Part shown: positions 467 to 56,958 of the stretch, piece after piece
Numbering within the stretch: the stretch's first letter is position 1
How the letters are laid out: every line of letters begins with the position of its first letter
DNA from: the human T2T-CHM13v2.0 reference genome, Homo sapiens
Assembly: GCF_009914755.1 (NCBI RefSeq)
Contig: NC_060932.1
Reading direction: 5' to 3' (one strand)
DNA length: 64,000 nucleotides
Program-made: the position numbers and the translations under genes
The notes under the pieces: generated by a model
What the model saw: only the letters and a program-made list of their open reading frames with translations
What the model was told of the DNA's origin: nothing
Database searches by the model: none

Positions 467-472
467 AATAAA
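467..472 (+). terminator. AATAAA poly(A) signal of the upstream FAM90A copy (3'UTR at 1-~500)
   Basis: AATAAA followed by a GT-rich tract. The same position recurs ~540 nt after the FAM90A stop codon at 13923-13928 and 21543-21548. Confidence 0.75.
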
Positions 473-540
473 ATTCTCAAAAAGATGACATATTGTCTTT
501 TGACTCTCATTCCGTGTTTGTGTGTAACTGATTTTCCAAG

Positions 541-13922: not shown

Positions 13923-13928
13923 AATAAA
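13923..13928 (+). terminator. AATAAA poly(A) signal of FAM90A copy 2
   Basis: Canonical hexamer ~540 nt after the stop codon, with a GT-rich downstream element. Confidence 0.75.
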
Positions 13929-13996
13929 ATTCTCAAAAAGATGACATATTGTCTTTTGACTCTCATTCCGTGTTTGTGTGTAACTGATTTTCCAAG

Positions 13997-15028: not shown

Positions 15029-16752
15029 TCCAAGGGCTTGAACATTTCTTGACTTGTTGGCAATCCAAATCGTTACGTCTCCGAAACAGAGTTGACTGAG
15101 GGGACCGCAGGGCTGGGCAGGACCTTTGACTTGCTATACATCCACAGGAGCAAGAAAACCTCAGCCCCACTCTACCAACACGCACCTAGTAAAATTCCGC
15201 CAACGGCATCTCACGCACGCTAACACGTGGGGAGCGTTGCTTGCACCACGAGTCCCCATTTGGCTCAACCGCCGATGCCAAGTGTGTGGTTCCAGTTGCG
15301 ACGGCCCCCCGTGAAGTGGCTTCCGGATGTGCGAAGGAACCAGGCAGAGTTTCACTGGCCAAATAGACCCCAGCAAAGCTGAAGTTAACTCCCACATTTG
15401 GGATGTACTTCAGAGGTAAAACATTCATCCCGTCTTCTTTCCGGATGTCTGACACCATGGTTCTCCCCCTGATCCTAAGAGTAGCTGAGGTAGAGACTCA
15501 CTGAAAGATCTAGGCAGGGATATCCCATCATGCACAGGCTCTCTCCATTCTCTGACCTGGGAACAACTCTCAGCAGGATTCCACATCTAGGAGGCCTCGG
15601 AACTCAGTGGGATTTTCTGAGACACACCAACTGGCTGCTCCCTCTCCGCCGCTGTTGAGGGTCGTTATCTTGATTATCCAGATCACCTAGAAAGTATCCG
15701 TATCCAGAATGAATAAGATCAACTCTCTGCTCCTCTGACAGCAGAGGGAGCAGGACCATAAGGAACCAAAGAGCGTGGAAGGAAACGATGTGACAGGAAA
15801 GCTCAGAGAACGGCCACAGGGGGTCGTCAGCAGGCCTTCCAACCTGAATCATGAATAATTAATGAAGCGCAAATCAAAGGGGACTGGAGTTTCAGCAGGA
15901 GCAATTCATCCAACGGGAGATCGCCGGAGGGCCAACAAGATTGAGAGACTGGGAGCCGGGTGCAGTGTCAAAGGGGACGCGACTGGTTCCAAAGCTCGAG
16001 AAGACCATGGGGTCACTTGGGCTACATGAGAAAACGCCCCAGTGTGCTGGTTCATCATTCCGACTCCTGCCTGTCTCTTCCCGTCCAAGGAACATGGACC
16101 CTAAGTCGTGCAGGTGCGGATGACCATGGGCAGAATTAGGGGCCGTGGCACAAAAGTTCACCGACACGGGAGTTCCACAGAAGGTGCGGTGGATCTTCGC
16201 AAATCCAGAGACATGGCAATGGGACCCAGGGAATTAGAGCCTCACAGGCGTCCGGGAGTCGCAAGACGAGCTGAAAAAGGAGCCAGGCACTGAAGGACAA
16301 AGCGTTGTTGACTTTCCTCATCTGTGTTTCCCAGTGCGGCCCAATTCACGGTGGTTTCCAAGCGCCTCCTGGGGGAGAAAACACATGAGGGTGCGGTCAG
16401 GGTTCTCTGCTGACAGACTTACCTTGGGGAAGAAAGAGAAGCTCTGAAGATGGATCATGGCCGTGACTGCATGTCAAGGAGAGTCTCCTTGATGACACTG
16501 AGGCCTACGTCGAGAGAGACAAAATGTGGTCCAATTAAAAGGTGTCTATTTTACCACATTTTTTAAAACGAAACAAAACAAAACAACAAAAAAGATGGAA
16601 AAGAAGACAGGGGTACAGGCACCAGTGTTACATGTCTGACGGGGAACATCTATTGTTCAAAGCTTGCAGCTGTACAAGTAGGTTTTAGAATGTCTGTCAG
16701 CAGTGGACAGGATCTTAGAGTGGGCTGTGCAGATAGACCTTTCCAGGTCATG

Positions 16753-21004: not shown

Positions 21005-21542
21005 GACTGCAGGTGGCAGGGGCTCCTTGGCCTCCAGCTCCCGTGACTTGGAGGGGACTGTGGGACTGAGGAGCGCAGAGCAGAGAGCACACTCTGCGCT
21101 GACTTCGATGCTCCCCGGCTGTGGCGCTTCTGTGGATGTGGGAGCCCAGGCCAGGCAGAGAACAGATGCAGGGACTCTGCCTCATTGAATTCTGGTGAGG
21201 GACATTGTATTTCGCATGGGTCTCCGGAAACGCACCAGGAAAAGCTTCCGCGTCAGTGATTCTTTGCGTCAGAAACTGCGTGATGCGCTGGAGTCAGACT
21301 TCCGCTGGGACGTCAATAGGAAACTGGGGAATTACTGTGTATTTGCTCTCTAGATGACTGAATAAGGGAAAAGTTAGGGAACCCTGAGAGGTGCAGCCCT
21401 TCCTCTGTGCTCCGCCCTGAGAGCAGTGTTTCGGACGCTGGGAAGCGTGCTGTGCAAAGTGCTCTCGGGGTCTTTCCTCAGCCTCGAAAACTGGGCTCTG
21501 GAATGCCTTTGTAAATATGTGTGTTGAATTTGTTTTGAAGTG

Positions 21543-21548
21543 AATAAA
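21543..21548 (+). terminator. AATAAA poly(A) signal of FAM90A copy 3
   Basis: Same position as in the other units. Confidence 0.72.
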
Positions 21549-21616
21549 ATTCTCAAAAAGATGACATATTGTCTTTTGACTCTCATTCCGTGTTTGTGTT
21601 TAACTGATTTTCCAAG

Positions 21617-22648
21617 TGAAGGGGTGGCCTGCCCCTCCACACCTGTGGGTGTTTCTAGTCGGGTGGGATGAGAGACGGAGAAAAGAAATAAGACACAGAG
21701 ACAAAGTATAGGGAGACAAAAGTGGGTCCAGGGGACCGGCACTCAGCACACCTAGGACCTGCACCGGCACCGGCCTCTGAGTTCCCTCATTTTTAATTGA
21801 TTATGATTTTCATTATTTCAGCAAAAAGGAATGTAGTAGGAGAGCAGGGTGATAATAAAGAGAAGGTCAACCAAAAAAACATGTGAGCAAAGCAATCTAT
21901 ATCATAATTAAGTTCAAGGGAAGGTACTATGCCTGGACGTGCACGTAGGCCAGATTTATGTTTCTCTCCACACAAACATCTCAGCGGAGTAAAGAATAAC
22001 AAGGCAGCATTACTGCCAACATGTCTCGCCTCGCGCCACAGGGCAGCTTTTCTCCTAGCTCAGAGTTGAACAAATGTACGATCGGATTTTACACCGAGAC
22101 ATTCAGCTCCCAGGGGCGAGCAGGAGACAGTGGCCTTCCTCCATCTCAACTACAAGAGGCTTTCCTCTTTGACTAATCCACCTCAGCACAGACGCTTTAC
22201 CGGTGTCAGGCTAGGGGACAGTCAGGTCTTTTTTATCCCACAAGGCCATATTTCAGAGTATCGCATCGAGAGAAACCTTGGACAATGCCCTACTTTCAAG
22301 GGCAGACGTCCCTGCAGCTTTCCACGGTGCATTGTGCCCCTGGTTTATTGAGACTAGAGAATGGCCACGACTTTTACCAAGTATACGGCTTGTAAACATT
22401 TGGTTAACAAGGCACGTCCTGCACAGCCCTAGATCCCTTAAGCCTTGATTTTATACAACACAGGTTTTTGTGAGCTCCAAGTTGGGTCAAAGCGGCTGGG
22501 GCAAAGTGCCTGGGGCAAAGCTACAAATGAACAACATCTCAGCAAAGCAATTGTTTAAAGTACAGGTCTTTTCCAAAATGGAGTCTCTTATGTCTTCCCT
22601 TTCGACATAGACACAGTGACAGTCTGATCTCTCTTTCTTTTCCCTACA
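21617..22648 (-). mobile_element. Solo HERV-K LTR5A-like LTR (diverged terminal copy)
   Basis: Same termini and TCCAAG TSD as the other two copies, so the same ancestral insertion. It carries many more substitutions and indels than those copies. Confidence 0.92.
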
Positions 22649-25600
22649 TCCAAGGGCTTGAACATTTCTTGACTTGTTAGCAATCCAAATCGTTATGTCT
22701 CCGAAACAGAGTTGACTGAGGGGACCGCACGGCTGGGCAGGACCTTTGACTTCGTATACATCCACAGGAGAAAGAGAACCTCAGCCCCACTCTACCAACA
22801 CGCACCTAGTAAAATTCCGCCAACTGAATCTCACGCACGCTAACACGTGGGGAGCGTTGCTTGCACCGCGAGTCCCCATTTGGCTCAACCGCCGATGCCA
22901 AGTGTGTGGTTCCGGTTGCGACGGCCCCCCGTGAAGTGGCTTCCGGATGTGCGAATGAACCAGGCAGAGTTTCACTGACCAAATAGTCCCCAGCAAAGCT
23001 GTAGTTAACTCCCAGATTTGGGATGTACTTCAGAGGTAAAACATTCATCCCATCTTCTTTCCGGATGTCTGACACCGGGCCTTTCCATGGTTCTCCCACT
23101 GATCCTAAGAGTAGCTGAGGTAGAGACTCACTGAAAGATCTAGGCAGGGATATCTCATCATGCACAGACTCTCTCTATTCTCTGACCTGGGAACAACTCT
23201 GAGCAGGATTCCACATCTAGGAGGCCTCGGAACTGAGCGGTATTTTCTGAGACACACTGAATGGCTGCTCCCTTTCCGCCGCTGTTGAGGGTCGTTATCT
23301 TGATTATCCAGATCACCTAGAAAGTATCCGTATCCAGAATCAATAAGATCTACTCTCTGCTCCTCTGACAGCAGAAGCAGCAGGACCACAATGAACCAAA
23401 GAGCGTGGAAGGAAACGATGTGACCGGAAAGCTCAGAGAACGGCCACAGGGAGTCGTAAGCAGGCCTTCCAAACTGAATCATGAATAATTAATGAAGCGC
23501 AAATCAAAGGGGACTCGAGTTTCAGCAGGTGCAATTCATCCAAAGGGAGATCGCCGGAGGGCCAACAAGATTGAGAAACTGGGAGTCGGGTGCAGTGTCA
23601 AGGGGGACGCGACTGGTTCCAAAGCTCGAGAAGACCATGGGGTCACTTGGGCTACATGAGAAAATGCCCCAGTGTGCTGGTTCATCATTCCGACTCCTGC
23701 CTGTCTCTTCCCGTCCAAGGAACATGGACCCTAACTCGTGCAGTTCCAGATGACTATGGGCAGAATTAGGGGCCGTGGCCCAAAAGTTCACCGACATGGG
23801 GGTTCCACAGAAGGTGAGGTGGATCTTTGCAAATCCAGAGAAATGACAATAGGACCCAGGGAATTAGAGCCTCACGGCGTCCGGGAGACTTTTCAGGTAT
23901 AATGTCTGGTGTCGCAAGACGAGCTGAAAAGGGAGCCAGGCACTGAAAGACAAAGCGGTGTTGACTTTCTTCATCTGTGTTTCCCAAAGCAGTCCAATTC
24001 ACTTTGGTAGAATTCATGTATTTATTTTCCGTTGGCTTGTAGTTGCAAACTTTTGATGTTATTGATTTTTGGTTGGAGAGTTTCGGTTTGAAAAAGTAGA
24101 TATTCTGAATATGGAGGTTGTCCAAGATTGTATCTCAAGGTGAGTCTACTTGATTCCAGCGAACCATACTTTGACATATAATACATATGTTTTAATTATA
24201 TTTTGTCTGTTTTAAAACAGCTTAAAAAATCACTTCGTGGAAAATGTCAGTTAGATACACCAATGTTAACTTTCTCATCACATGTCCAGAGGCACTGTAA
24301 AATTCATTCTAGAATGCAAAATTCCCAGCCACTTCTACGTGGAACTTTCTGCAGAATGGGATTGTATCCAGTTTTCAGGGGGCGCAGGTGTGGTACGAGC
24401 TGGTCCTTGGTTTCCTGCTGAAGTTGGAATCCTGCAGATTGCTTAGGGGCGGTTTCCACCTGTCCCTTCTTTCCAGGTCATCACTAACCTTTCCTGATCC
24501 CCCATGGGGACTCAGAACTTATCTAGAGTCACAGGCCCACCTGGGATGCTGCCCTTGAGCCTCTGTGCTGTCCATGATGGTTCCATGCCACTGATCTGCT
24601 GGGACACATTCTGCAGAGGGATGGGCTTGCATGAGCTGTCCCTGCCTTTCTGAAAATCACAGAGATTTCTGGTGTCTGAAGCCACATAGAAATATCTGTG
24701 GAGTCTCGGGAAGGCCAGGGATGCCATTCACAGGCTGCTGTTCTTCCTCTTAATGGCAGCAAGAGTGATTTCTGAGTTTCCTAATTGACTTCGAAATAAT
24801 TTTGTTGATTTTGTTGTGACAAAGACCACTCCTCTTTCTGTGGCATCCAGTTCACCTGTAGGGTTTTTTGGGATTATGTGGAAACTCTTGCATTTTTCCA
24901 GAGCCTCAATTCATCCTGGATGTTCTCAGGAATGCACTAGCTGATCCCTGCCTTGGTGGCATCTTGAAACATTGAGGGAGGCCCCTTAGGTCCATGAGGC
25001 ACAAGGAGGTCCATCAGGAATTGAGGGGGCATGTGTCTGCCCATCTGTAGCTGGAACTTCCATTTGCCTTCAGAATGCAGGTTCTTCCTGAACTAATAAA
25101 TTATCTTCATCTTGGTGTAAGTAGCCACAATATAATAATTCATAGTAACTCTATTAATAAAAATAACTGAATATCAACAATGAAGGTAATAATGACAATG
25201 TTAATTATTATAATATTAATAGTAAAAATAAAACAAAGGCAATATAGATTACGGATTCCCCTAAGTGAAGGACAATGTCCAGATATAGGGACACATGTGT
25301 CGTTTGCACTCAGAGTCAAATGAAACGTGTTCCTCAAAGGCAAAGGACAAGCAGCATAAGGAAAACACAACGTTCATGGATGATCACATGGGCTACCTTG
25401 GAACTCATGTGGAAAGACTGCAGGCAAAGTGTATCTGGTACTGGGACTGCTCACCAGCCAGCCCCCACCCACCTTCATGAGGTAGGACAGCAGGATAATG
25501 GGGAAGGGGTCCATGCAAGGGATGCAAGGCTCGTGTCACACCTGATTCAAAGAAGCACTGCTTCTGACAGATGTTTATCTCCTAACACTGTGTCACCTCT

Positions 25601-43152: not shown

Positions 43153-45270
43153 TTCCAAGATGGTGGATTGAAGGCATTGTTAGTCTGCCTCTTGCACTTG
43201 GAAAGAGAAATTGGTGTGTAGAGACTCACACTGTGAACTTTCTTTCAAGAAGCAACACAGGAATTTAACAGGAAAATTGAAATAATCCACAGACCATTTG
43301 AAAGAAACAGCAGGATGCAGCTTACACCATAAGCTAGGCAGAAAATTGTAAGTTTCCAGGGTGTGACAGGAGGGTAACTGACTCTAAGATATACGCTTCC
43401 ACTGGGAAACCTATCAATCCAGGCCGTGAGGGAAGGCCTTAACCCTCCTCAGCGCTGGAGCTGATTTAGGGAAGAGTGGTGAGTATATGAGGAGTGGCAT
43501 TGGGATGTGCTTTGAATCTCCAGCACATTCCCAGTTTCTGGTAGAATGGAGGGAAGCCATTGCTGATTCTACCTCAGACAGGACCTCCTAGAAGTCTGCC
43601 AGGTAACTCAGATGGTTGTCACAGGTTGAGACAACCTCCCAAATGAAATGTGTGATATAATCTTGACTGGGGACAAACTCCCCAGGCCAGAACTGAGAGG
43701 TGAGTGGGAAGTGTGCTGCAGCAGCAAGCACAGGAGCTGGGGGCCCCTGCTCTGCAGGTGGATCAGGAAGGGTGTGGCCTGAAGGTTGCAGTTGCTGTCT
43801 CCATAGGGGAGACTTATGGTATGGGTCAGTTTTGAGTTCTGAGCCCAGACTTCTTGAAGCTTAGCTAGCTACTCCCATTGGAACACTGTGGGTGTGAGAC
43901 CTGCCTTGCCAAGTGTGTGGGAGCTGGATGGGGCTTACTACCAAGCTGCTACTCCCCATTCTTCACATAGACTCTCCTTGTACAGAGGCAGTGACAGTTT
44001 CACTTCTCTCTGGAAAATTACTCCAGTGGCCCAAGAACAGCCTTCCAATTCCCACTGGAGCCACTGCTTGTCCCACACATAGACAGCCAGAGCATCACCT
44101 TACCTGACCTAGTTCCCACCTGGCTTTGCTCAACCATCTACCCTGGTAGATTAACACAAATAACTGAAGAAACTTTTAGAAGCTCTTTGGCTCCACTTAT
44201 TTCCTGAGACACCAGAGTGCCTCCCATGGGTAACATAAGGCAAGTCCAAATCTCACCACTACCACCACAGCTGGCAGTCTTTTGGAAGCACCACCTCCTG
44301 GCTGAAGGCCTACTGACAGTCCTTTACAGCATCTGCAGGTAGAATAACATAGCACCCAGGAAGGAGAAAAGTTGTGAGTGACCACAACTGTTACCATTGC
44401 TTGCATCATTCTGGCTAAGCAGGAGGCCCTGAGTCTGTCCATGTGATGAGTTCATTACTACTACAACTGGCATTTGAGAAATCCAATACACAACACACTA
44501 GGACTATTTATAACCAAGGAATCGTTCAGAGTCTACAACACTCCCCTGCCATCCCCATCTGATCAGCTGCTGATACACACTGCTGTGAGACGTGAGGACA
44601 AATTATATCACTGGATCCATTGCAGACATTCTTGAGCACCAGCCTGGTGTGCGGCATCCCCACTGGGTAGCTAGACCCAGAGAAGCAGCAGCAGCATATG
44701 CAGTAATCTGAATTTCATGGCCTCCTACTCTGAGGAAAGAGGAAGCACACCACATCAAGGGAGCACCCTGGGGACAAAATAATCTAGATGGCCTTGAGTC
44801 CCAGAACATTCCACTTGTGGGAAGTTGTTTGGTGGTTTGTTTGTTTTTGTTTTTATTTCCAGCAGAGGAACATGTGCATGCTAGGCTCAGCGAGGAAAGT
44901 CTGTAGCTATATCTCAACAATCAGGCAGCCTTGATGCTCAAGAAGAGTCTTGGAGAATGGGGACTTATTTTCCATCTCATACACTACTGCAGACACAATA
45001 GTACTGTACTCAGAGCCAGTGTACTGAGGTGAGTGGCCATAAAACCTACTGAGACACCAGCCAGGAGAGCTAAAGGAGTACTTGCATTACCACTCCCCCA
45101 ACCCCAGGCAGCACAGCTTGCAGCTCCAAAAAAGACCGCTTCCTTCTGCTAGAGGAGATTAGAGGAAAGAGTAAAAAGGACTTTGTCTTGCATCTTGGAT
45201 ATCAGTTGAGCCACAGTAGGATAGGGCCCTGGTCAGGGTCATGAGGTCCCCACTGTGGATGTAACTAACT
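43153..45270 (+). mobile_element. Old L1 5'UTR-type sequence
   Basis: Starts TTCCAAGATGGTGGATTGAAGGCATTGTTAG...CACTTGGAAAGA, which is typical of L1PB/L1M 5' ends. Subfamily and end point uncertain. Confidence 0.55.
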
Positions 45271-45279
45271 TTTTTTTTT

Positions 45280-45818
45280 TAATTTTATAGGCTGATAGGC
45301 AGAAGGGACTTGTCTCAAATAAGACTTTGGACTTGGAGTTTTGAGTTATGCTGGAAACAGTTAAGACTTTGGGGGACTGTTGGGAAAGCATGATTGGTTT
45401 TGAAATATATATAAAATACATGAGATTTGGGAGGTGCCAGGAGCAGAATAATATGGTTTGGCTCTGTGTCCCCACCCAAACCTCATCTCAAATTATTATC
45501 CCCACACATCGACAGAGGGACTTGTAATCGCCATGTGTCAAAGAAGTTTACTTCATGCTATACTCATGATAGTGAGTGAATTCTTAGGAGATCTGATGGT
45601 TTTAAAAGTAGGAGGTTTTTTTTTTCTGTGCACTCACTTCTCTCTCCTGCCACCTTGTGAAAAAAGGTGCCTGCTTCTGTCTTGCCTTCCACCATGACTG
45701 TAAGTTTCCTGAGGCCTCCCCAGCGATGCAGAACTGTGAATTAATTAAACACCTTCCCTTTGTAAATTACCCAGTGTGGGGTAGTGTCTTTACAACAGTG
45801 TAAAAATGGACTAATACA
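45280..45818 (+). mobile_element. MaLR THE1/MST element: internal 3' fragment plus LTR (45449-45818)
   Basis: Internal motif GTTAAGACTTTGGGGGACTGTTGGGAA. LTR runs TAATATGGTTTGGCTCTGTGTCCCCACCCAAA...GTAAGTTTCCTGAGGCCTCCCCAGC...AAATGGACTAATACA. Confidence 0.88.
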
Positions 45819-47180
45819 GGTTCCCTGAAATATTCTGAGTCCCTTTGGAGGCAAGAATCTCTTTATACCAGCATGGTATACTGATGAAGTACATCCTGAT
45901 CTCATGGGCTAAGAAAGAATTTATACATACCCTTTATGTGTCAGCAACTCTATGTGCAGGCTTTTGAGACCCAGAATGGGCTTTCTTGCCCCATCTAGTC
46001 TATGTAACATTTTTCTAAGCCAACTCAATGTCTTTCATCCACACTGGGATAGGTCCTAAATTGCTGTCTGTTGCCCACCTGAGATAATGACATGTTGTTA
46101 AATCAGGTGTGTGTGACCCTGATACGTCTATCTGAGTGGCAGGAGAGGGTCTATCTGTTCACAAGAGTCTCTGCAACATTTTCTAAGTCAGTTCAGAAGC
46201 TTATTGATTCACCTTTGCAGGCAATGTAGCCATGAGAAAGGTCTCCAAAAATTCCTGATCTTCTGGAAATTTTTAAAGTCTCCGCAGGTTTCCAGAGGTG
46301 ACTGTAGCTGCACTGAAAGTCACTGCCTGGATAACTGGCCTGTTAAAGCAAAGGCAAAATATGTCAAGCCCACTAAGAATACCCAGAAGCCATGGTATTC
46401 AATTAATTTTTGTCTTTCTTGCAGGTGGGAGAATACTGAGGATTATGCCCTCCTATAGCCAGTGAAGGTTACTCCAGTGCCTAGATGTACCAGTCAAGAG
46501 AGGTCATGGGAGAGCAGATGGCAGAAAGGGCAGCCAGGTCCTTTCGCTGGGGTTTACTGCTTGTCATGAGCTCTGCTGCTGGGCAGCATGTGTGATTTCT
46601 GACTCCTGCCATGTCCTCAAGAAGCCTTGCCCCATCAGCCAGCTGTCCTACCTCCTGAAAGCTGGTGCATGTTTGTTAACATGGAGATCCAGAACAAGAG
46701 TCACTTTAGTATTTATCCATAGAGTCCCCATGTGTGCACACGCTTACCTGCAGGTTGTTTTTCCTATTTTTCTGAATGTTAATCCTTGCCTTCTGGAACT
46801 CGATATTACCCCCTGTGGCCAAATATGGGATAATTGTAAGGGGAAACTGCTCTTTAGGTCCCAAGTCCACAGGGTTAGTACTATTATCAATATTAAAATT
46901 ATTAATTATGGATATTAGTATCATAATAATCATCATCATTCCTGTTAATACTCATCAATATGTTTATTATTATTATCATTAAGATGGTTTATTAATGTTA
47001 TTATTCAGTAATAAATGTTTAGTTTCTCCATTCACTCAGTCAAACTGGAGTCTGACTCCCGATATGACTATGGATATGACTGCATATGACTATGAGTGTT
47101 ACCCTGCAGATATAGACATGAACCGCTGTCCCAGAGACAGCTCTTGCAGGCACTAATTGCTCTTTCATAGGATGAGTTCC

Positions 47181-48177
47181 TTACAGGAGAGAAGGACTGA
47201 TCTCCATGATGTGGTTTCCTCAGGGTCTCATTAAGGGCTGGTGATACAGGAGCACTGCCTACCCCTCTTACTCACGTGAGAGTGGTACATTCTCTGTTGT
47301 CATGGCTGGGATGGCTTCATGTTGAACATATAAATTCCAGGTTCTAGAAGCAAAAAAGCAAAAGATGCATTGGATCTGCATAGGGAACTGCAAGCCATCC
47401 AGCAACCACAGGACACAGTCAGAAACAACCACGTGGACCACATCGCCCAAGCTCAGCTGCATGGCTCTCCATTGGGTTAGGACGAGGACCTATTCCACCA
47501 GGCTCAACTGGAGTCCTATCCCTGGTCCCAGGACCACAAGGAGCATCTCTTTTTTTGGAATCACACTGCTCCATTCGAAGGACAGCCCTCAGTTCTCTAT
47601 CTTCAAAAGAGGCTGCAAATGGTGCTGATTGGGAGGGAGCCGCCAGCAGCATCACCCTCTACAACTATAAAATAAAACTGTCTGCCAGGGTGGGATATTA
47701 TGCTGACCCTACCTAAAAGCACATTTCCTAGATGTTGCTTGTTGCCTGGAGTTTGAACAGCATTGTCCAAACTTTGCCATTGAAGAACAAGGAAACTTAC
47801 CTGGGGTAGTTGCAGGAGTAGGCCTAAATCCAGGTGTGAAGATCCTTGAACTGGGGGTGTTTCTGTACCTGTAGAGATTGCAGACTGGGAAAGGTAAGGC
47901 TCTGGTCCTGCCAGGCTCTCTAGAGGTTAAGAATGTGATCTGCAGAAAGACATGAACTAGCACAGGCTACTGTAGAACATCTGCCCCCAAGAATCATAAA
48001 TGCCTTTTCACTCATCCTGCAGAATGCACTCTCTACTTTAATGATCGTGTGGGATGTGACTTTAATTTTTAGGCATGGGGATTGATCTTAAGAAAAAGCA
48101 GGCAAAGTGCCTTACCTGTCCTGGGACTCTGCTCCACTTGCCAACATTTGAGTGGATTCATTTGTGTGGTAGTCAAG
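47181..48177 (-). pseudogene. PRR23D-like unprocessed pseudogene (three recognisable exons)
   Basis: Exon 48177-48116 reads LTTTQMNPLKCWQVEQSPRTG. Exon 47868-47801 reads [23 protein letters not shown]. Both have AG/GTAAG borders in compatible phases. The large exon ~47572-47181 reads EMLLVVLGPGIGLQLSLVE*VLVL...DGLQFPMQIQCI...ENVPLSRE*EG*AVLLYHQPLMRP*GNHIMEISPSLL. This is colinear with PRR23D1 as recalled. Confidence 0.8.
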
Positions 48178-48957
48178 CTACAGGAAATAAAGGGACCAGT
48201 CAGTCTTCCACACAATGACACAGAGGCCAATTATCACAAGTCCAAATCTCCATTTGTCATCCAGCTCACATTCCCGCTGTGGCACAAGGTCACATGCACT
48301 CGTGTCCAACTCCAAATAGTAGCTTCACATAGTATGCCAGCACTCTCCCACCCATCACCTCTTCTAGAAGGTCTTCCGCTGGATTGGAAATGGCCTGGGA
48401 TAAAAGATAATGACCACAGGAAGCAGTTGTTTTTTTAGGATCTGATCCACATGAGAAGGTAGGACATCTAATTTGGTCTGAGGACTTTAGCTATGCTAAT
48501 ATTTCAGGTAACTGTCCCCTGTGTCTATAGATTTACAATGGGAATGGAGTGAGAGATGATGAAAACTGTTTTCTTTCCTAGTGAGTATGAGGTAGAACCC
48601 TTACATCATGCTCTCTGTTGCCTGTTCTCCATACAGAGCCATCTCCCATTTAGAGAGAAGACATGGATTGTCAGTGGGAGCAAGCCTGAGATATGCCCAC
48701 TGGCAGCTCCCAGAAACCCCTGAAACCTGGCCACATCATGAAGTTTCAACTGTGGGTCTCATGCCTCTCTTGGTATCTTGAATTCAGAACATTTAATGTC
48801 ATGGCAGGCCAGGGAACTTCCTCTGCTCTAGTTTGGCTCTCTATCGCACATTCACCGCCCCCCCACCCCCCGCCACACACACACAAAGTCACACACACTC
48901 ACACATCAACCTACTGGCAAACCAAGGTAGAAACACACACACACACACACCTGCTCA

Positions 48958-51195
48958 ATCCAGGCCAATATCCCTGATGAACATTAATGCAAAAATTCTT
49001 AATAAAATACTAGCAAACAGAATCCAGCAGCACATCAAAAAGCTTATCCACCACAATCAAGTCGGCTGCATCTTTGGGATGAAATGCTGGTTCAACATAC
49101 ACAAATGAATAAATGTAATTGATCACATAAACAGAACCAAAGACAAAAACCAGACAATTATTTCAATAGATGCAAAAATGCCTTTGATAAAATTCACCAT
49201 CCCTTCATGTTAAAAACTCTCAATAGACTAGGTACTGATGGAACATATTGCAAAATAATAAGAGCTGTTTATAACAAACCCACAGCCCACATCATATTGA
49301 ATAGGCAAAAGCTGGAAACATTCCCTTTGAAAACTGGTACAAGACAAGGATGTCCTCTGTAACCTCTTCTATTCAACATAGTATTGGAAGTTATCACCAG
49401 GGCTATCAGGCAAGAGAAGGAAATAAAGGGTATTCAAATAGGAAGAGAGTAAGTGAAGTTGTCTCTGTTTGCAGATGACATGACTTTATATTTAGAAAAC
49501 CCCATCATCTCAATTCAAAAACTTCTTGAACTGGTAAGCAAGTTCACCAAGTTCTCAAGATATTAAATCATTGTGCAAAAATCACAAGCATTCCTTTACA
49601 TCAACAATAGTCAAGCAGAGAGCCAGATCAAGAATGAACTCCCATTCACAATTGCTACAAAGAGAATAAAATACCTAGGGATACAGCTAGGAGTACAAGG
49701 GATGTGAAGGACCTCTTCAAGGACAACTGCAAACCACTGCTCAAGGAAATAAGAGAGGACACAAATGAATGGAAAAACATTTCATCCTCATGAATAGGAA
49801 GAATCAATATTGTGAAAATGGCCATACTGCCCAAACTAATTTATAGATTCAATGCTGTACCCATCAAGCTACCATTGACATTTTTCACAGAATTAGAAAG
49901 AACTATTTTAAATTTCATATGAAATCAAAGAATACCCCGTATACCCAAGACAATTGTAAGCAAAAACAACAAAGCTGGAGGCATGACGCTACCTAACTTC
50001 AAACCACACTAGAAGGCTACAGTAACCAAAACAGCATGCTACTGCTGCCAAAACAGACATATAGACCAATGGAGCAGAACAAAGCCCTCAGAAGTAACAC
50101 CACACATCTACGACCATCTGATCTTTGACAAACCTGACAAAAACAGGCAAGGGAGAAAGGATCTCCTATTCAGTAAATGCTGCTGGGAAAACTGGCTTGC
50201 CATAGGCAGAAAACCAAAACTGGACCCCTTCCTTACATCTTATACAAAAATTAACTCAAGATGGATTAAAGACTTAAATGTAAAATCCAAAACCATAAAA
50301 ACCCTAGAAGAAAACTTAAGCAATACCATTCAGGACATAGGCATGGGCAAAGACTTCATGACAAAAATGCCAAAAGCAATTGCAACAAAAGCCAAAATTG
50401 ACAAATTGGATCTAATTAAACTAAAGACCTTCTGCACAGCAAAGAAACTATCATCAGCATGAAAAAGCAACCTACAGAATGGGAGAAAATTGTTGCAATC
50501 TGCCCATCTGACAAAGGTCTAATAACCAAAGTTGACAAGGAACTTAAACATATTTACAAGCAAAAAAACAAACAACCCCATCAAAAGTGAGCAAAAGATA
50601 TGAACAGAAACTTATCAAAAGAAGACATTTATGCAACCAACAAATATATTTTTAAAAAGCTCAACAACACTGATCATCAGAGAAATGAAAATCAAAATTA
50701 CAGTGAGATACCATCTCACACCCGTCAGAATGGCGATTATTAAAAAATTAAGAAACAATAGATGCTGGTGAGGCTGAGAAGAAAGAGGAAGGTTTTTACA
50801 CTGTTGGTGAAACTGTAAATTAGTTCAACCATTGTGGAAGACAGTATGGCTATTCCTCAAGGATCTAGAACCAGAAATACCATTTGACCCAGCAATCCCA
50901 TTACTGGCTATGTACCCAAAGGAATATAAATCATTCCACTATAAAGACACATGCACACGTATGTTTACTGCAGCACTATATACAATAGGAAAGACATGAA
51001 ACCAACCCAAATGCCCTTCAGTGCTAGACTGGATAGGAACAACACACAACACAGCCCGTTGGGGGCTGGGGGTGAGGGAAGGAAACTTACAGGATAAGTC
51101 AATAGGTGCAACGAACCACCATAGCAAAGGATACCTATATAACAAATCTGCTCGTTCTGCACATGTATCCTGTATTTTTTAAATTTAAAAAGAGG
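48958..51195 (+). mobile_element. 5'-truncated L1PA (ORF2 RT/C-terminus plus 3'UTR), inactivated
   Basis: Reads [35 protein letters not shown] and TTTGCAGATGACATG (FADD). Contains stops and frameshifts, and an internal 3'UTR deletion near 51035. Followed by (TACA)n at ~51198-51244. Confidence 0.95.
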
Positions 51196-54100
51196 AAATA
51201 CATACATACATACATACATGCATACATACATACGTATGTACATACTTTTGAAAAACGTCTATACAGCTTGGATCTTCATTCCTGATAAGCCAAGGAACCT
51301 GGAGAAACACCAGAATTCTGTCCCTCTGAGAATGCCGGACAGGTTTACCTTCATCACCATAAAATTTTGGAACAAATGTGGTAACTGCAGGTTCTCTCCA
51401 CAATGAGTAACTGAAAATTGAGGCAGTATTTCAGATCCTAAAAAACTGATGAAGTAATTCGCCACACATTTGGGTTGTTTTTGCCTTTTCCTACTATGAA
51501 GATTGCTAATAGGAAGAATAGTGTACAAGTATCTGTTTGATTCCCTGCTTTTAGAATCCTTTGCTTGTTTGTGTGTTTGTCTGTTCCTTCTTGAGACAGG
51601 ATGTCACTCCAGTCAGCCAGGATTTTCCAGTGTGTAATTTTTGTTGTTTCCTTTTGTCAAGTTTTAGAAGTTGTTATTTTATTTCTATTGAATTTTAAGG
51701 CATTTTTAGATATGTATTAAAACATTATCACACAGGCCGTGTGTTACATTGCAATTATTTTCATCATTCCTTTAAGAAACAAAAGATTTAGCTTAGATAT
51801 CTTCCAATTTGTGAATCTTTTCTGATTTTGACTTTTTTAAAAATGCTGTCATATACAAGAAACCCTTGGATTAAAAATGCCATGAATATTTCTCTTTTCT
51901 TGCAGTCATAACTTCGGTGTATGTCATCAATTAGTCTCTGGTTTATAGCATGTTTTCTTGAAAGTGTTTCACAATGTATTTTGGGCATTGAGAATTTCAT
52001 CAAACTTAAGTGAAGGTTTCGACATTCACTATTGAAGGGAATAGTCCTATTTGATGCCTTATTATTTGCATATCTTGCTTCCACAAGAACATTTCACGCA
52101 AAGACTTGTCTTCTCCCCAATGCCAGATCATTACAACATGACATGGAATCAACTGGCCAAAAATGGGAAGGTTATCTCTGGAATGTCTATTTGACTCCAT
52201 TGATCACTTCATCTTAATTAAGACAAAAAATATGCTGTGTTAATTACCTCACATTGTTGCAAATTCTCAAGTCAGAAAATGTAGTTATAACTTCTTGGCA
52301 TTTAGTCACTGAAAGAATGATCTTATCTCACAGATGCACATGCTTGGAAGTACTTCTCAAGGCATACACACACATCCAGAAACAAACACACAAATACACT
52401 CATACACACAAACTGTTTAATATGTACACAATTGTTAAATAGCATTGTTATACATGAAATAAGGCAAATGTTTAGCTACTATCCTAACCTGGTTCCACTC
52501 CTAACATATTTGCTCATAATACTGACAAGTAAATCTGCTTCAACCCTTCCATAGTCACAATGTAAGCAGTGTCCATTAAATTCTCTGAGGAATGCAAGAG
52601 GATACAACCTAAGACAAAAAACTTAATTGAATCCTGATATTTCATTAGTAAATAGGGTAATTGATGGATAAATGTAATGGTCTCGGTGGGTGGACAGTAG
52701 TTAAATAAGGGCTGATGCAGCAAGATAATTATTTAAAGGCGTTTGAAAGAAATTGAAACAGGAGAGTGGATGTATTCAGCTAAAATAAAATCCGGAAGCC
52801 CTGAAATAAATCTCATTTTGCGGGTAAAAAAATGGCATTGGAGGAGATTCTGGGTCAATCATGAAGCTGTGAAAGTTGCATCTTGGAAGCAGGATCCCTG
52901 TAATGAAACGAGACTTGTTTATCAGAGGTGGTCTTTCAGAGGAAAAGATTTTGAAGAATGGCCCCTTCCTTTTGTGTATTTGACGATTAGATTTCATGCC
53001 AAATTTCGGGTTTTAAACTCTATTTAAACGTTAAAAGAATTAACTAAAATGGCAAAAAAACAAGAAATTTTTTGATTAGGAATCGTCAAATATTCATTTC
53101 TTGTTAGATACAGTTACCAAACACGACCTACCGGAGAGAAACAATTGTGGAGAATGGCCCCTTATTTTTGTATATTTGCTGATTAGATTTCATAGTCCAT
53201 TTCTCATTAGGTACAGAGATCAAAGTTGAACTACCCAAGAGTAGAGATATCCAGGACAGAACTCAGGGCACGGTAGAACCACAGAATCTTGGGTGAAATA
53301 TTGCTCAAGAACAAAAATGTGCTTATTCAGCGTGTTTCTGTGTGACATGTGTGGAAACTAAAGTGCAATGAGCATGACACGAAGACAGAATATCAATTCG
53401 GCTCACCTCAAATCAGTTGTGAGCATTAAAGAAAACCAATTCCTAGGTCCCGCTTAAAGAGATAAGACCATCCAACAACCTGTGTGAAGCCACCGCATCT
53501 GGCTTGCTCATGATTCTGGGGATCATTCTCCAGAAAATGGTGGCTCCTTTCTCCCTGTGGAGCATCTTTCTAAGCAGTGCCCTTTCTTCCCCCAGGACAC
53601 TTTACATGAGGTGCAGGAAGCCTTCTGATGGAGCACACCTGGCCCATGAAAAGACAAGGGAAAGAAAAAGGGCCAAAGGTCACAGTCCTCTCATTACATC
53701 ATCATCCTTAAAATCATCCTAATTTCATGAGCCCTGAAGACAGGGCTGTTTCTTTACACCTAGAGGCCTTGGCGCCGGGCCTCAATTCTTCCCTGTTCCT
53801 TACTGTCTAAGACATTTTGGGAAAATCACTAGAGCCAGGACCTTCATTCCTGGTAAGCCAGAGAGCCGAAAGACACACCCAAATTCTGTCCCTCTTAGTT
53901 CAGGGAACAGGTCTACTTTCGTCAGCATTACAATTTTTGCACCAAATGTGCTAACTGCAATTCCACCATACAATGCATAACTGGAAATGGAGGGAACATC
54001 TCAGATCATGAACAATCGATGAGAGAATCCAGGAGATACACGGCTTATTTTTGCCTTTTCCCTGTGAAACAAGGGCAAGTATTAAAAACTTTATGCTGTC

Positions 54101-54908
54101 TTCTATTTCACTGCCTGCTTTTAAACGTCTCCGATGTATTCTTCTTGAGAAAGGGCCTCACTACTGTCACCTGGGCTTTTCTAAGGTATAATTTTCCTTG
54201 TTTGCTTTTGTCAAAATTAGAACATTTTATTTCATATCTATGAAATGTTGAGCCATTATCACATACGTATGGAAATAGTATCACCAATGCTGTGTGATAA
54301 GTTGTTTTTATTTTGGTCAATTCTTTAATAAACAAAAGCTTATAGTTGGGATACCTTCTGATTTCTCAAGGTTTTTGTTTCATGTTTTCTTAAACTGCCG
54401 CCGCACGTCCGAAACCACTCACTATACAATGTCAGGACCATCTCTCTTTTCTGGCACACATAAATTTGGGGAATGTCATCAATTAGTCTCTCGGTGATTG
54501 CATGATTTCCCCAAAGTCTTTCACAGTCTACTTTGTGCAATGAGTATCTCTTCAAACTTCAGTGCATATTTCTACCATTTGATGCTTTATTATTTGGCAA
54601 CCTAGCTTCCACAAGAGCATGTCAGGCAAAGAGTTCTCTTGTTCTCCACTGGAAGGTAATTTCATTCGCACAGAGAATCAATAGGCTGAACGTAGAAAGG
54701 TTATCGCTGGAAGCTCTGTTTCATTCCACGGATCTCTCCTTTCTTATTAAAGAAAAAAATACGCTGTGCTAAATACCATACTTCATTGACTAATCTCAGG
54801 TCAGAAAGCACATTTCCGATTTCTTGTCCTTCTGTCGCTGAGAGGATGATGATAGCTGCCAAAAGTACATACTTGGAAGTTCATCCCAGCACGAGCACAC
54901 ACACACAT

Positions 54909-54954
<46 letters not shown>

Positions 54955-55246
54955 ACACAGGGTTTCATAGGTAAAGATTTCTTCCCTGACATTCTTTTAC
55001 CTAAAATAAGGCAACTGTGCGGCCACTGCCCAAACCCGGTTACACTCATATTATATGTGCCTATCACCCTGAGGAGTAATTTGATTCAGGTGTTCTAGAA
55101 GTCATGATGTGGGCTGTGTCTGTTGAATTCCCAGCGATGCAAGGGGACACACCCTGTGACTCATTCCTTAATTGAGTGCTGATATTTGATTGTTTTATCG
55201 CGCACCTGATGGGTGGGTGGGGTGTTCGCGGTTGGTGGGGGTGAGT

Positions 55247-55256
55247 TCTATAAGGG
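55247..55256 (+). promoter_or_regulatory. TATA-like element upstream of USP17L
   Basis: TCTATAAGGG ~115 nt upstream of the ATG, preceded by GT-boxes GGGTGGGTGGGG. Repeated at ~59975-59984. Confidence 0.45.
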
Positions 55257-55365
55257 ATGATGCGGCCAGAGAGCTCGTCATTTGAAGACTCTCTCGGAAG
55301 AGATAGCGTCTTGCTGCAACCTGCGGTCCCAGCAGAAAAACCTTGTGATCCTTGTTGCGGGCGAC

Positions 55366-56958
55366 ATGGGGGACGACTCACTCTACTTGGGAGGTGAGTG
55401 GCAGTTCAACCACTTTTCAAAACTCACATCTTCTCGGCCAGATGCAGCTTTTGCTGAAATCCAGCGGACTTCTCTCCCTGAGAAGTCACCACTCTCATCT
55501 GAGACCCGTGTCGACCTCTGTGATGATTTGGCTCCTGTGGCAAGACAGCTCGCTCCCAGGGAGAAGCTTCCTCTGAGTAGCAGGAGACCTGCTGCGGTGG
55601 GGGCTGGGCTCCAGAATATGGGAAATACCTGCTACGAGAACGCTTCCCTGCAGTGCCTGACATACACACTGCCCCTTGCCAACTACATGCTGTCCCGGGA
55701 GCACTCTCAAACATGTCAGCGTCCCAAGTGCTGCATGCTCTGTACTATGCAAGCTCACATCACATGGGCCCTCCACAGTCCTGGCCATGTCATCCAGCCC
55801 TCACAGGCATTGGCTGCTGGCTTCCATAGAGGCAAGCAGGAAGATGTCCATGAATTTCTCATGTTCACTGTGGATGCCATGAAAAAGGCATGCCTTCCCG
55901 GCCACAAGCAGGTAGATCATCACTGCAAGGACACCACCCTCATCCACCAAATATTTGGAGGCTGCTGGAGATCTCAAATCAAGTGTCTCCACTGCCACGG
56001 GATTTCAGACACTTTTGACCCTTACCTGGACATCGCCCTGGATATCCAGGCAGCTCAGAGTGTCAAGCAAGCTTTGGAACAGTTGGTGAAGCCCGAAGAA
56101 CTCAATGGAGAGAATGCCTATCATTGCGGTCTTTGTCTCCAGAGGGCGCCGGCCTCCAACACGTTAACTTTACACACTTCTGCCAAGGTCCTCATCCTTG
56201 TCTTGAAGAGATTCTCCGATGTCGCAGGCAACAAACTTGCCAAGAATGTGCAATATCCTGAGTGCCTTGACATGCAGCCATACATGTCTCAGCAGAACAC
56301 AGGACCTCTTGTCTATGTCCTCTATGCTGTGCTGGTCCACGCTGGGTGGAGTTGTCACGACGGACATTACTTCTCCTATGTCAAAGCTCAAGAAGTCCAG
56401 TGGTATAAAATGGATGATGCCGAGGTCACTGTCTGTAGCATCATTTCTGTCCTGAGTCAACAGGCCTATGTCCTCTTTTACATCCAGAAGAGTGAATGGG
56501 AAAGACACAGTGAGAGTGTGTCAAGAGGCAGGGAACCAAGAGCCCTCGGCGCTGAAGACACAGACAGGCGAGCAAAGCAAGGAGAGCTCAAGAGAGACCA
56601 CCCCTGCCTCCAGGCACCCGAGTTGGACGAGCACTTGGTGGAAAGAGCCACTCAGGAAAGCACCTTAGACCACTGGAAATTCCTGCAAGAGCAAAACAAA
56701 ACGAAGCCTGAGTTCAACGTCGGAAAAGTCGAAGGTACCCTGCCTCCCAACGCACTTGTGATTCATCAATCAAAATACAAGTGTGGGATGAAAAACCATC
56801 ATCCTGAACAGCAAAGCTCCCTGCTAAACCTCTCTTCGACGACCCGGACAGATCAGGAGTCCATGAACACTGGCACACTCGCTTCTCTGCAAGGGAGGAC
56901 CAGGAGAGCCAAAGGGAAGAACAAACACAGCAAGAGGGCTCTGCTTGTGTGCCAGTGA
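55366..56958 (+). CDS. USP17L1: Ubiquitin-specific peptidase 17-like (530 aa, intronless; catalytic C89, H334 and D350/351 present)
   Basis: Starts [19 protein letters not shown]. Cys box [10 protein letters not shown] (TGC at 55630), His box [11 protein letters not shown] (CAT at 56365), WYKMDD, C-terminus [11 protein letters not shown]. The family call is firm; the paralogue is from recalled sequence and gene order. Confidence 0.92.

What the first reader, a model, noticed from the sequence alone, without database searches (positions are those of the whole stretch)
47181..48177. Hidden multi-exon PRR23D-like fossil gene on the minus strand
Seen: two small exons with intact splice sites (TAG|48177-48116|GTAAG and CAG|47868-47801|GTAAG) in matching phases. 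The large exon has a decayed acceptor, a +1 frameshift in an A7 run (~47550-47556), and stops at 47492-47490, 47270-47268 and beyond. Recalled PRR23D1 segments align in order: LATTQMNPPKRRQVEQGPSTG with LTTTQMNPLKCWQVEQSPRTG; GAKKPSISGAPHLNSYQSLELPQ with [35 protein letters not shown] with DGLQFPMQIQCI; ENVPFSPAEEGKAAPLYQQPLMIPQANH with ENVPLSRE*EG*AVLLYHQPLMRP*GNH. Inference: this is an old unprocessed paralogue, far more diverged than a recent duplicate. It puts the PRR23D family between DEFB109 and USP17L in this duplicon. The surviving splice sites could be reused by a minus-strand lncRNA (FAM66 family transcripts are recalled to overlap this region). I cannot tell whether it is already annotated.
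Basis: partly seen in the sequence, partly recalled or inferred. Interest (0 to 1): 0.8.

Follow-up and report, generated by a model that had tools for sequence, protein, structure and literature searches.

The report
Old PRR23D-like pseudogene fragment, partly exonised
This is a decayed, truncated relic of an old copy of the PRR23D gene inside the chromosome 8 defensin duplications; some of its surviving splice sites now serve annotated ZNF705G transcripts, and it is otherwise an ordinary kind of genomic fossil.

Summary
On the minus strand, window 48956-47181 is a 1.78-kb unprocessed fragment of a PRR23D-type gene (Pfam DUF2476). It holds the exon 1 donor, intron 1, exon 2 (48177-48116), intron 2, exon 3 (47868-47801), intron 3 and the first 391 nt of exon 4 (47571-47181).

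It aligns end to end, introns included, with an intact four-exon, 279-codon paralogue at chr8:11.925 Mb (72% DNA identity; tblastn E 3e-20).

- **Lesions:** exon 4 has lost its acceptor (AG to TG), carries a +1 shift near the A7 run, and has five in-frame stops.
- **Missing parts:** exon 1 with the ATG and the last ~80 codons. A 5'-truncated reverse-transcriptase element abuts one end and an unrelated low-copy segment the other.
- **Copies:** four siblings (96-97% identical; chr8 x3, chr12 x1) share the junctions and most lesions.
- **Age:** intron divergence (K2P 0.33) puts the split far before the duplicon spread.
- **Annotation:** RefSeq lists no pseudogene here. Fossil exon 3 and its splice sites are nevertheless exons of non-selected ZNF705G transcripts. 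Another annotated exon (47276-47343) uses an acceptor that only this copy has.

GENCODE and other species could not be checked.

The parts
48951..48960 (-). Possible last ~10 nt of exon 1, followed by a retained GT donor at 48950-48949. Everything 5' of it, including the ATG and promoter, is gone.
   Evidence: Alignment with the intact gene starts here (blastn boundary 48956). The intact gene has ...gagaccag|gtatgt at the matching place. The junction with the retroelement is ambiguous within about 48957-48964.
48178..48950 (-). Intron 1 homologue, holding a (GT)n run near its 5' end.
   Evidence: 561 of 758 aligned bases identical to intron 1 of the intact paralogue, K2P 0.32.
48116..48177 (-). 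Exon 2 (62 nt), with acceptor TAG| and donor |GTAAGG intact.
   Evidence: 54 of 62 nt and 14 of 20 residues identical to exon 2 of the intact gene. The splice dinucleotides do not vary among the 5 copies.
47869..48115 (-). Intron 2 homologue. It holds the alternative acceptors used by RefSeq ZNF705G models, whose exons start at 47956, 47939 and 47884.
   Evidence: 173 of 243 aligned bases identical. An AG precedes each listed exon start.
47801..47868 (-). Exon 3 (68 nt), with acceptor CAG| and donor |GTAAGT intact. It is identical in extent to a RefSeq exon of non-selected ZNF705G transcripts.
   Evidence: 49 of 68 nt and 8 of 22 residues identical to exon 3 of the intact gene. The hub table lists exon 47801-47868.
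47572..47800 (-). Intron 3 homologue, ending in a destroyed acceptor (cgaatg where the intact gene has ccacag).
   Evidence: 169 of 227 aligned bases identical. Acceptor hexamers are given. TG at 47573-47572 does not vary among the 5 copies.
47181..47571 (-). First 391 nt of exon 4: 7 codons in the original frame, a +1 shift, then 122 codons in the shifted frame with 5 stops. Homology stops at 47181, about 240 nt before the stop codon of the intact gene.
   Evidence: tblastn 47549-47184, 53 of 122 identical, E 3e-20. A search of the whole genome gives E 7.3e-17. 259 of 386 nt identical.
47550..47556 (-). A7 run at or near the +1 frameshift.
   Evidence: It is shared by all 5 copies, and one sibling (L005) has A8.
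47276..47343 (-). RefSeq exon of a ZNF705G transcript, carved out of fossil exon 4 by new splice sites (...cttctag| and |gtgagtaag).
   Evidence: Hub table. The acceptor G at 47344 is present in this copy only, and all 4 siblings have C. The donor G at 47275 is present in 4 of 5 copies.
48957..51190 (+). 5'-truncated reverse-transcriptase retroelement that forms the 5' boundary of the fossil. I recognise it as L1 from memory. An (ACAT)n tail follows at about 51200-51245.
   Evidence: Pfam RVT_1 on plus-strand frames starting at about 48950 (E 2.3e-7 and 1.2e-6). Plus-strand ORFs. The 3' end was read. The junction is shared by all 5 copies.
45824..47180 (.). Unrelated low-copy segment S, which forms the 3' boundary of the fossil. 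It holds the FAM66B exon 46748-46812 and the ZNF705G exon 46251-46339.
   Evidence: From 47180 downward the matches switch to another set of places: window coordinates 75050-76722, and chr4, chr11 and chr12, at 70-78% identity.

Best explanation
Window 48956-47181 (minus strand) is a non-functional, unprocessed and doubly truncated pseudogene fragment of the PRR23D lineage of the PRR23/DUF2476 family.

**Origin (inferred).** A genomic, intron-containing copy of a four-exon PRR23D-type gene split from the lineage of today's PRR23D genes long before the 8p23.1/12p13 duplicon spread.

**What is left (shown).** It has lost exon 1 with the start codon and the last ~80 codons. It has also lost the exon 4 acceptor, gained a +1 frameshift and accumulated stops. 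It cannot encode a PRR23-type protein.

**Later history.** The fragment, with both junctions, was then copied with the DEFB109/FAM66/ZNF705/USP17L duplicon to five places (shown).

**Present role.** Its only visible present-day role is passive. The intact exon 2/3 splice sites, and new sites created by its decay, are available to minus-strand read-through transcription. RefSeq models of ZNF705G use them as alternative internal and terminal exons (annotation shown; transcription and any function not tested here).
For: 1. **DNA homology to an intact gene.** Blastn gives 1802 aligned columns at 71.9% identity and 884 bits, from 48956 to 47181, against chr8:11925353-11927115. In the whole genome the only other matches are 4 near-identical siblings and the PRR23D-cluster copies.
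2. **The target gene is intact.** It has exons of 77+62+68+633 nt, 279 codons, ATG to stop, GT-AG introns. It matches Pfam PF10630 at 54 bits against a cut-off of 27, E 3.5e-14.
3. **The target gene lies where PRR23D1 is reported.** The paper places PRR23D1 in the 8p23.1 beta-defensin repeat unit (PMC4255768, passages read).
4. **Same intron positions and phases, and the introns are homologous.** 903 of 1228 intron bases are identical.
5. **Protein level.** tblastn E 3e-20. The fossil's translation hits PRR23D best (43% over 122 aa, E 4e-24), then the chr19 copies (29%, E 1.5e-11), then chrX. The chr3 copies are not significant.
6. **Lesions.** Acceptor AG to TG, a +1 shift and five stops.
7. 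**No trace of the missing ends.** No exon 1 or promoter homology was found beyond the retroelement. No orphan 3' piece was found in the window or the genome.
8. **No sign of constraint.** dN/dS is 0.73 over 118 codons, and exon 4 is more diverged (K2P 0.445) than the introns (0.33).
9. **Lesions predate the duplicon spread.** Five copies, 96.0-97.4% alike (one pair 99.84%), share both junctions, the frameshift, the acceptor loss and 3 stops.
10. **Splice-site reuse.** The boundaries of the RefSeq ZNF705G exons coincide with fossil splice sites (hub table; dinucleotides checked).
Against: - The fossil's own translation gives no Pfam hit: 0 families at E up to 10. It is not among the 32 genome matches to PF10630. 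Family membership therefore rests on pairwise similarity to a member.
- A protein tree of 123 columns puts the fossils beside the chr19/chrX copies (support 89/92, below the starred level) rather than beside PRR23D. An AU test does not reject a fossil+PRR23D clade (p 0.17). DNA identity favours PRR23D: 72% against 56.5% to a chr19 copy.
It is only indirectly supported by location, length and family. No tool returned that name.
- Transcript use rests on annotated models only. No RNA data were seen.
- The age is an inference from divergence and recalled substitution rates.
Confidence: 0.93

Rival explanations
1. History variant A. The locus once held a complete gene, possibly a working one. That gene was truncated later, at the 5' end by a deletion tied to the retroelement insertion and at the 3' end by the junction with segment S.
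For: - The 5' break coincides with the 5'-truncated end of a plus-strand RVT_1 element.
- The exon 1 donor is still there.
- Exon 2 is better kept than the introns: 54 of 62 against 73.5%, binomial P 0.008 before correcting for six segments.
- Amino-acid changes unique to the fossil are not significantly more numerous than those unique to intact PRR23D: 14-17 against 9-12.
Against: - Beyond the element's 3' tail there is no PRR23D upstream homology, so a simple insertion is excluded and a deletion has to be assumed.
- dN/dS of 0.73 and an exon 4 more diverged than the introns give no sign of past constraint.
- The relative-rate counts are too small to decide.
Confidence: 0.45
2. History variant B. 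The fragment was dead on arrival. A partial genomic duplication carried only intron 1 to mid exon 4 of a PRR23D-type gene to this place.
For: - Both ends are abrupt switches to unrelated sequence.
- The missing parts were not found anywhere in the genome.
- Divergence looks neutral throughout.
Against: - A break exactly at the exon 1 donor that also coincides with a retroelement end looks more like a secondary event.
- Old missing pieces could simply have decayed or been deleted.
Confidence: 0.45
3. The fossil exons have been taken over for a selected function, for example regulating ZNF705G through alternative 3' exons or a lncRNA. On this view they are not mere splicing noise.
For: - RefSeq lists at least 10 exon forms of non-selected ZNF705G transcripts that overlap the fossil (hub table).
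- All four exon 2/3 splice sites are intact in 5 of 5 copies.
- Exon 2 is unusually conserved.
Against: - Keeping 8 splice-site bases at this divergence is not unlikely by chance (my estimate, about 0.2-0.3).
- The models ending at 47314 show no AATAAA or ATTAAA upstream, so they may rest on partial evidence.
- The acceptor of exon 47276-47343 exists in only 1 of 5 copies.
- No expression or conservation data were available.
Confidence: 0.08
4. The object is not a PRR23D relic. The alternatives are a chance similarity, a processed retrocopy or a recent duplicate.
For: No Pfam hit for the fossil translation.
Against: - Chance is excluded by E 3e-20 (protein) and 884 bits (DNA).
- A retrocopy is excluded because introns are present and homologous.
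- A recent duplicate is excluded by about 72% identity, against 96-97% among the duplicon copies.
Confidence: 0.01

Closest known systems
PRR23D1/PRR23D2. In this genome these are the intact four-exon genes at chr8:7.261, 11.925 and 12.466 Mb. The name is recalled, not returned by a tool.
   Same: - Same exon-intron plan, with identical positions and phases for introns 1-3.
- Homologous introns (73.5% identity).
- Same strand logic.
- Same chromosome band, in the beta-defensin region.
- 43% amino-acid identity over 122 residues of exon 4.
   Different: - No exon 1, and no last ~80 codons.
- Lost exon 4 acceptor, a +1 shift and five stops.
- K2P 0.40 from every PRR23D-cluster copy, against 0.145-0.29 among those copies.
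- It sits in the DEFB109/FAM66/ZNF705/USP17L core duplicon, not in the 322-kb DEFB4-DEFB107 repeat unit, which is where PMC4255768 places PRR23D1 (passages).
The two decayed PRR23D-like copies beside each intact PRR23D gene: chr8:11939696-11941776 (L009 type) and chr8:11921694-11922645 (type 3), each present three times.
   Same: They are also unprocessed, damaged relatives of PRR23D on chr8.
   Different: - They are younger: K2P 0.145 and 0.25 to the intact gene, and 84% and 52% amino-acid identity.
- They lie within 15 kb of the intact gene.
- They keep the 3' end of exon 4.
Other human DUF2476 loci: chr3 x3 (recalled as PRR23A-C), the chr19:8.74-8.90 Mb tandem array, and chrX:126.47 Mb.
   Same: They share the conserved core of exon 4, visible in the anchored alignment. 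The chr19 units also align through intron regions at about 57% identity.
   Different: They are much more distant. The fossil's translation is 29% identical to chr19, matches only 50 residues of chrX, and has no significant match to chr3.
Exonised pseudogene or duplicon fragments in segmental duplications (a general class, from established knowledge).
   Same: Surviving and newly created splice sites in a dead gene are used by neighbouring transcription units (hub table).
   Different: Nothing unusual was seen. Use is known here only from predicted or curated RefSeq models.

Membership tests
PRR23 / DUF2476 (Pfam PF10630) | Match to the family HMM above the gathering score | tested here: not met
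   Fossil fragments and the read-through translation P0001 give 0 families at E up to 10. The fossil is absent from the 32 genome matches. The intact chr8 paralogue scores 54 bits against a cut-off of 27. A miss is expected for a decayed fragment of 130 codons.
PRR23 / DUF2476 (Pfam PF10630) | Significant pairwise similarity to a member that passes the HMM | tested here: met
   tblastn E 3e-20. E 4e-24 in the reverse direction. HMMER-scored genome search E 7.3e-17.
PRR23D lineage (unprocessed paralogue) | Same intron positions and phases as the intact four-exon gene | tested here: met
   Exon 2 is 62 nt and exon 3 is 68 nt in both, with boundaries in the same alignment columns.
PRR23D lineage (unprocessed paralogue) | Intron sequence homologous, so not a retrocopy | tested here: met
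   903 of 1228 intron bases identical, and all three introns are alignable.
PRR23D lineage (unprocessed paralogue) | Closer to PRR23D than to any other human DUF2476 locus | tested here: inconclusive
   DNA says yes: 72% against 56.5% to chr19, and the genome DNA search found no matches outside chr8 and chr12. The protein tree places it beside chr19/chrX (89/92). The AU test does not reject the PRR23D grouping, p 0.17.
Pseudogene | Lesions that rule out the ancestral protein | tested here: met
   No ATG exon. Acceptor AG to TG. A +1 shift. Five in-frame stops. The last ~80 codons are missing.
Pseudogene | Already catalogued as such | not testable with these tools
   The RefSeq table supplied by the hub has no pseudogene row at 47181-48956. 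GENCODE could not be consulted. No paper in the library holds PRR23D3P or PRR23D4P (0 papers).
Exonised pseudogene | Fossil splice sites used in real transcripts | not testable with these tools
   Annotated ZNF705G exons 47801-47868, 47801-47884, 47314-47868 and 47276-47343 fit the sites (hub table). No RNA-seq data were on hand.

The most novel reading that the evidence does not exclude
The fossil is the last trace of a separate PRR23D-lineage gene that predates the primates and sat next to DEFB109. That would show PRR23D-type genes and beta-defensins to have been neighbours since before the duplicon era. Its decay products have since been recruited as alternative exons of the testis-expressed ZNF705 genes. 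This includes the birth of one exon in one copy only: G at 47344 creates the acceptor of exon 47276-47343 in the ZNF705G locus.
Probability: 0.25. Interest if true: 0.35.

Novelty: new member of a known kind. Interest (0 to 1): 0.22.

Why it matters
- **Gene family history.** It adds an old, extinct branch to the small and poorly studied PRR23/DUF2476 family. This genome holds five copies of the relic.
- **Annotation.** It explains where several annotated ZNF705G alternative exons come from, which helps in judging those transcript models in a region that is hard to annotate.
- **A marker for duplicon history.** Its two fixed junctions and its lesions, some shared and some private, give a handy marker for ordering the duplications of the 8p23.1/12p13.31 core duplicon.
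- **Limits.** It does not change what is known about how such regions evolve.

Tried and rejected
- **Pfam on the fossil.** Seven separate fossil frames and the read-through translation gave no PRR23 hit. One weak chance hit appeared, SMN_G2-BD at E 0.11.
- **Rfam.** A scan of 45000-50000 on both strands gave 0 matches.
- **Exon 1 and promoter.** A search beyond the retroelement (window 48801-56000, word size 7) gave only chance matches of 21 nt or less.
- **Missing 3' third of exon 4.** Nothing in the window. Nothing in the genome apart from the known copies.
- **Flank homology.** A test between the window (30001-64000) and the next 30 kb found only segment S and repeats. It gave no clue to the pre-insertion arrangement.
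- **Protein tree and AU test.** They could not settle whether the fossil is sister to PRR23D or to the chr19/chrX group.
- **Relative-rate counts.** Three-taxon counts (14-17 against 9-12 unique changes) were too small to say when the gene died.
- **Literature.**
  - PRR23D3P and PRR23D4P: 0 papers.
  - PRR23 + pseudogene + 8p23.1: 4 papers. I read passages of one only (PMC4255768), and it does not mention this relic.
  - DUF2476, "PRR23 family" or PRR23D as whole words: 3 papers, seen as a listing only.
- **Supplements.** None were opened.

Full report
**1. What is in the sequence**

I read window 46900-48500 on the minus strand.
- A 62-nt exon, 48177-48116, is preceded by cctgtag and followed by gtaagg.
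- A 68-nt exon, 47868-47801, is preceded by ctacag and followed by gtaagt.
- The first exon leaves one base over. The second supplies the other two and ends in phase 0.
- Further down there is an A7 run at 47556-47550.
- In the frame that starts at 47588 there are five stops: 47492-47490, 47270-47268, 47261-47259, 47222-47220 and 47183-47181.

**2. Is it a PRR23D relative?**

I could not use remembered protein sequence, so I searched the window's own genome with the 997-nt stretch. Two kinds of match came back.
- Four copies at 96-97% identity: chr8:7.588, 12.131 and 12.667 Mb, and chr12:8.208 Mb.
- Matches at 70-74% to three clusters on chr8 (7.245-7.264, 11.92-11.94 and 12.46-12.48 Mb), each holding three related pieces.

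One piece in each cluster carries an open 228-codon frame that matches Pfam PF10630 (DUF2476) at 54 bits against a cut-off of 27, E 3.5e-14.

I reconstructed that gene from the genome (L041, chr8:11925111-11927186, minus strand). It has coding exons of 77, 62, 68 and 633 nt, 279 codons from ATG to stop, and GT-AG introns.

PRR23D1 is reported to lie in the 322-kb beta-defensin repeat unit at 8p23.1 (PMC4255768 and PMC4364288, passages read). No tool returned the name PRR23D. I use it on these grounds and from recall.

**3. How the fossil matches the intact gene**

| Measure | Result |
|---|---|
| tblastn of the intact exon 4 frame against the whole window | 47549-47184, 53 of 122 identical, no gap, E 3e-20 |
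| First 7 codons of exon 4 | lie in another frame upstream of the A run |
| DNA homology | one block, 48956 to 47181; 1802 columns, 71.9%, 884 bits |
| Intron 1 | 561 of 758 identical |
| Exon 2 | 54 of 62 |
| Intron 2 | 173 of 243 |
| Exon 3 | 49 of 68 |
| Intron 3 | 169 of 227 |
| Exon 4 | 259 of 386 |

Exon boundaries fall in the same alignment columns, so the intron positions match. The copy is unprocessed.

Where the intact gene has ccacag before exon 4, the fossil has cgaatg. The fossil also has one extra base between the A run and about 47543.

The fossil's own translation does not reach Pfam's model. Its best pairwise match among the human DUF2476 loci is the chr8 gene (43%, E 4e-24). 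The chr19 copies follow (29%, E 1.5e-11), then chrX. The chr3 genes do not match significantly.

**4. The two ends**

*5' end.* Homology stops at about 48956. This is at the last bases of exon 1, and a GT donor is kept at 48950.
- Upstream lies a plus-strand retroelement. Its reverse-transcriptase domain (Pfam RVT_1, E 2.3e-7 and 1.2e-6) begins at the junction.
- Its 3' end and (ACAT)n tail lie near 51190-51245. I recognise it as a 5'-truncated L1 from memory.
- Beyond it there is no homology to exon 1 or to 900 nt of promoter of the intact gene. The ATG exon is therefore not merely displaced.

*3' end.* Homology to all PRR23D-type copies stops at 47181, about 240 nt short of the intact gene's stop codon.
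- From 47180 downward the sequence matches a different low-copy family, segment S (45824-47180).
- S has 70-78% relatives at window coordinates 75050-76722 and on chr4, chr11 and chr12.
- No orphan piece encoding the last ~80 residues turned up in the window or the genome.

**5. The five copies**

The window copy and its four siblings are 96.0-97.4% identical over 1.9 kb. One sibling pair is 99.84% identical.
- *Shared by all five:* both junctions, the lost acceptor, the A-run shift (one sibling has A8), three of the stops, and all four exon 2/3 splice sites.
- *Private to the window copy:* two more stops, with T at 47492 and 47270 where 4 of 4 siblings have G. It is the most decayed of the five (43% against 46-49% identity).

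Death and truncation therefore predate the spread of the duplicon. PMC4255768 describes this duplicon as a core low-copy repeat holding DEFB109, FAM90A, FAM66B, ZNF705 and USP17L, which also maps to 4p16.1, 11q13.4 and 12p13.31 (passage). No fossil copy was found on chr4 or chr11.

**6. Age and place in the family**

- Over the shared 0.7 kb the fossil is K2P 0.40-0.41 from each of the three PRR23D-cluster types. Those three are 0.145-0.29 from each other. The fossil therefore branched off before they did.
- Intron K2P is 0.33, against 0.026-0.04 raw difference among the duplicon copies. That is roughly ten times older.
- With recalled neutral rates of 1.0-2.2e-9 per site per year, this gives about 75-165 million years. 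This is a rough inference, and mutation rates in duplicated regions may be higher.
- A protein tree of 15 rows and 123 columns makes the fossils one clade (100/99). It places them beside the chr19/chrX copies (89/92) rather than with PRR23D.
- An AU test does not reject the PRR23D grouping, p 0.17.
- DNA identity favours PRR23D: 72% against 56.5% to a chr19 unit.

I file it as the deepest branch of the PRR23D lineage, with that caveat.

**7. Was it ever a working gene?**

This is undecided.
- dN/dS against the intact gene is 0.73 (118 codons, dS 0.50), and exon 4 is more diverged than the introns. That fits neutral drift in the fossil and weak constraint in PRR23D.
- Changes unique to the fossil (14-17) are not clearly more numerous than those unique to PRR23D (9-12).
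- Exon 2 is better kept than the introns (P 0.008 uncorrected). That may be chance.

**8. What it does now**

The hub's RefSeq table lists no pseudogene here. It does list exons of non-selected ZNF705G transcripts that coincide with the fossil.
- 47801-47868 is exactly exon 3.
- 47801-47884 uses the exon 3 donor.
- 47314-47868, 47314-47884, 47314-47939 and 47314-47956 use the exon 3 acceptor or acceptors in intron 2. They run on into exon 4.
- 47276-47343 is a new exon inside exon 4.

All have AG or GT at the expected places.

The selected ZNF705G transcript has no exon in the window. These forms are therefore downstream read-through variants. The forms that end at 47314 show no AATAAA or ATTAAA upstream.

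The acceptor of 47276-47343 depends on G at 47344. Only the window copy has it; 4 of 4 siblings have C. The private T at 47270, which makes a stop, also turns the donor into gtgagt.

The one listed FAM66B transcript has the fossil within an intron. ZNF705G is reported as testis-specific, and PRR23D2 as epididymis-specific (PMC7436996, passages).

Whether any of this splicing matters is untested. I rate a selected function at under 0.1.

**9. Verdict**

- It is an ordinary kind of object: an old, truncated, unprocessed pseudogene fragment carried along by a segmental duplication and partly exonised.
- Novelty is limited to its apparent absence from the RefSeq table. I also found no mention in print. 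PRR23D3P and PRR23D4P occur in 0 papers. Four papers hold PRR23, pseudogene and 8p23.1 together, and I read one in passages, which did not mention it.
- GENCODE, other species and RNA data could not be consulted.

Noticed in passing
Outside the window: G000 chr19:8738254-8895595 (loci L014-L035): A tandem array of at least 22 DUF2476 (PRR23-family) units, spaced about 7.46 kb apart. Each has an open frame of about 215 codons, 38% identical to PRR23D exon 4 (PF10630 E about 1e-19). The units also align with PRR23D through intron regions at about 57-58%. I do not know whether this array is annotated or described.
   Followed up: partly
Outside the window: chr8:11921694-11922645 and 11939696-11941776, each repeated at 7.245-7.265 and 12.462-12.482 Mb (L009, L010, L041, L043): Each beta-defensin repeat unit holds three PRR23D-type genes. 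One is intact, with 279 codons. A second is 84% identical in amino acids, but the first part of its exon 4 is out of frame and the exon 3 region seems locally duplicated (query 316-410 matched twice). A third is 52% identical and carries 4 stops.
   Followed up: partly
window 45824-47180 and, outside the window, window coordinates 75050-76722 (L045): The segment next to the fossil holds the FAM66B exon 46748-46812 and the ZNF705G exon 46251-46339. It has an old paralogue, 70-77% identical, about 29 kb away on the DEFB108C side. Further relatives lie on chr4:9.399, chr11:71.738 and chr12:8.196 Mb. Its homology starts exactly where the PRR23D homology ends.
   Followed up: partly
L002 (chr8:12130830-12131826) and L003 (chr8:7587866-7588862): These two fossil copies lie in opposite orientation about 4.5 Mb apart and are 99.84% identical over 1.9 kb. 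All other pairs are 96.0-97.4% identical. This suggests recent exchange between the distal and proximal 8p23.1 repeat blocks.
   Followed up: no
window 1-2654, 7578-8464, 13443-16110, 21065-23740: The left flank of the PRR23D cluster (chr8:11918001-11920676) is 93-97.6% identical to four places in the window, in the FAM90A / LINC00965 / ZNF705G 3'-exon part. The PRR23D cluster therefore abuts the same duplicon family.
   Followed up: no
Outside the window: chrX:126469752-126470147 (L039): A single DUF2476 locus with an open frame of 208 codons (PF10630 E 3.6e-7). In the protein tree it groups with the chr19 array (100/100).
   Followed up: no
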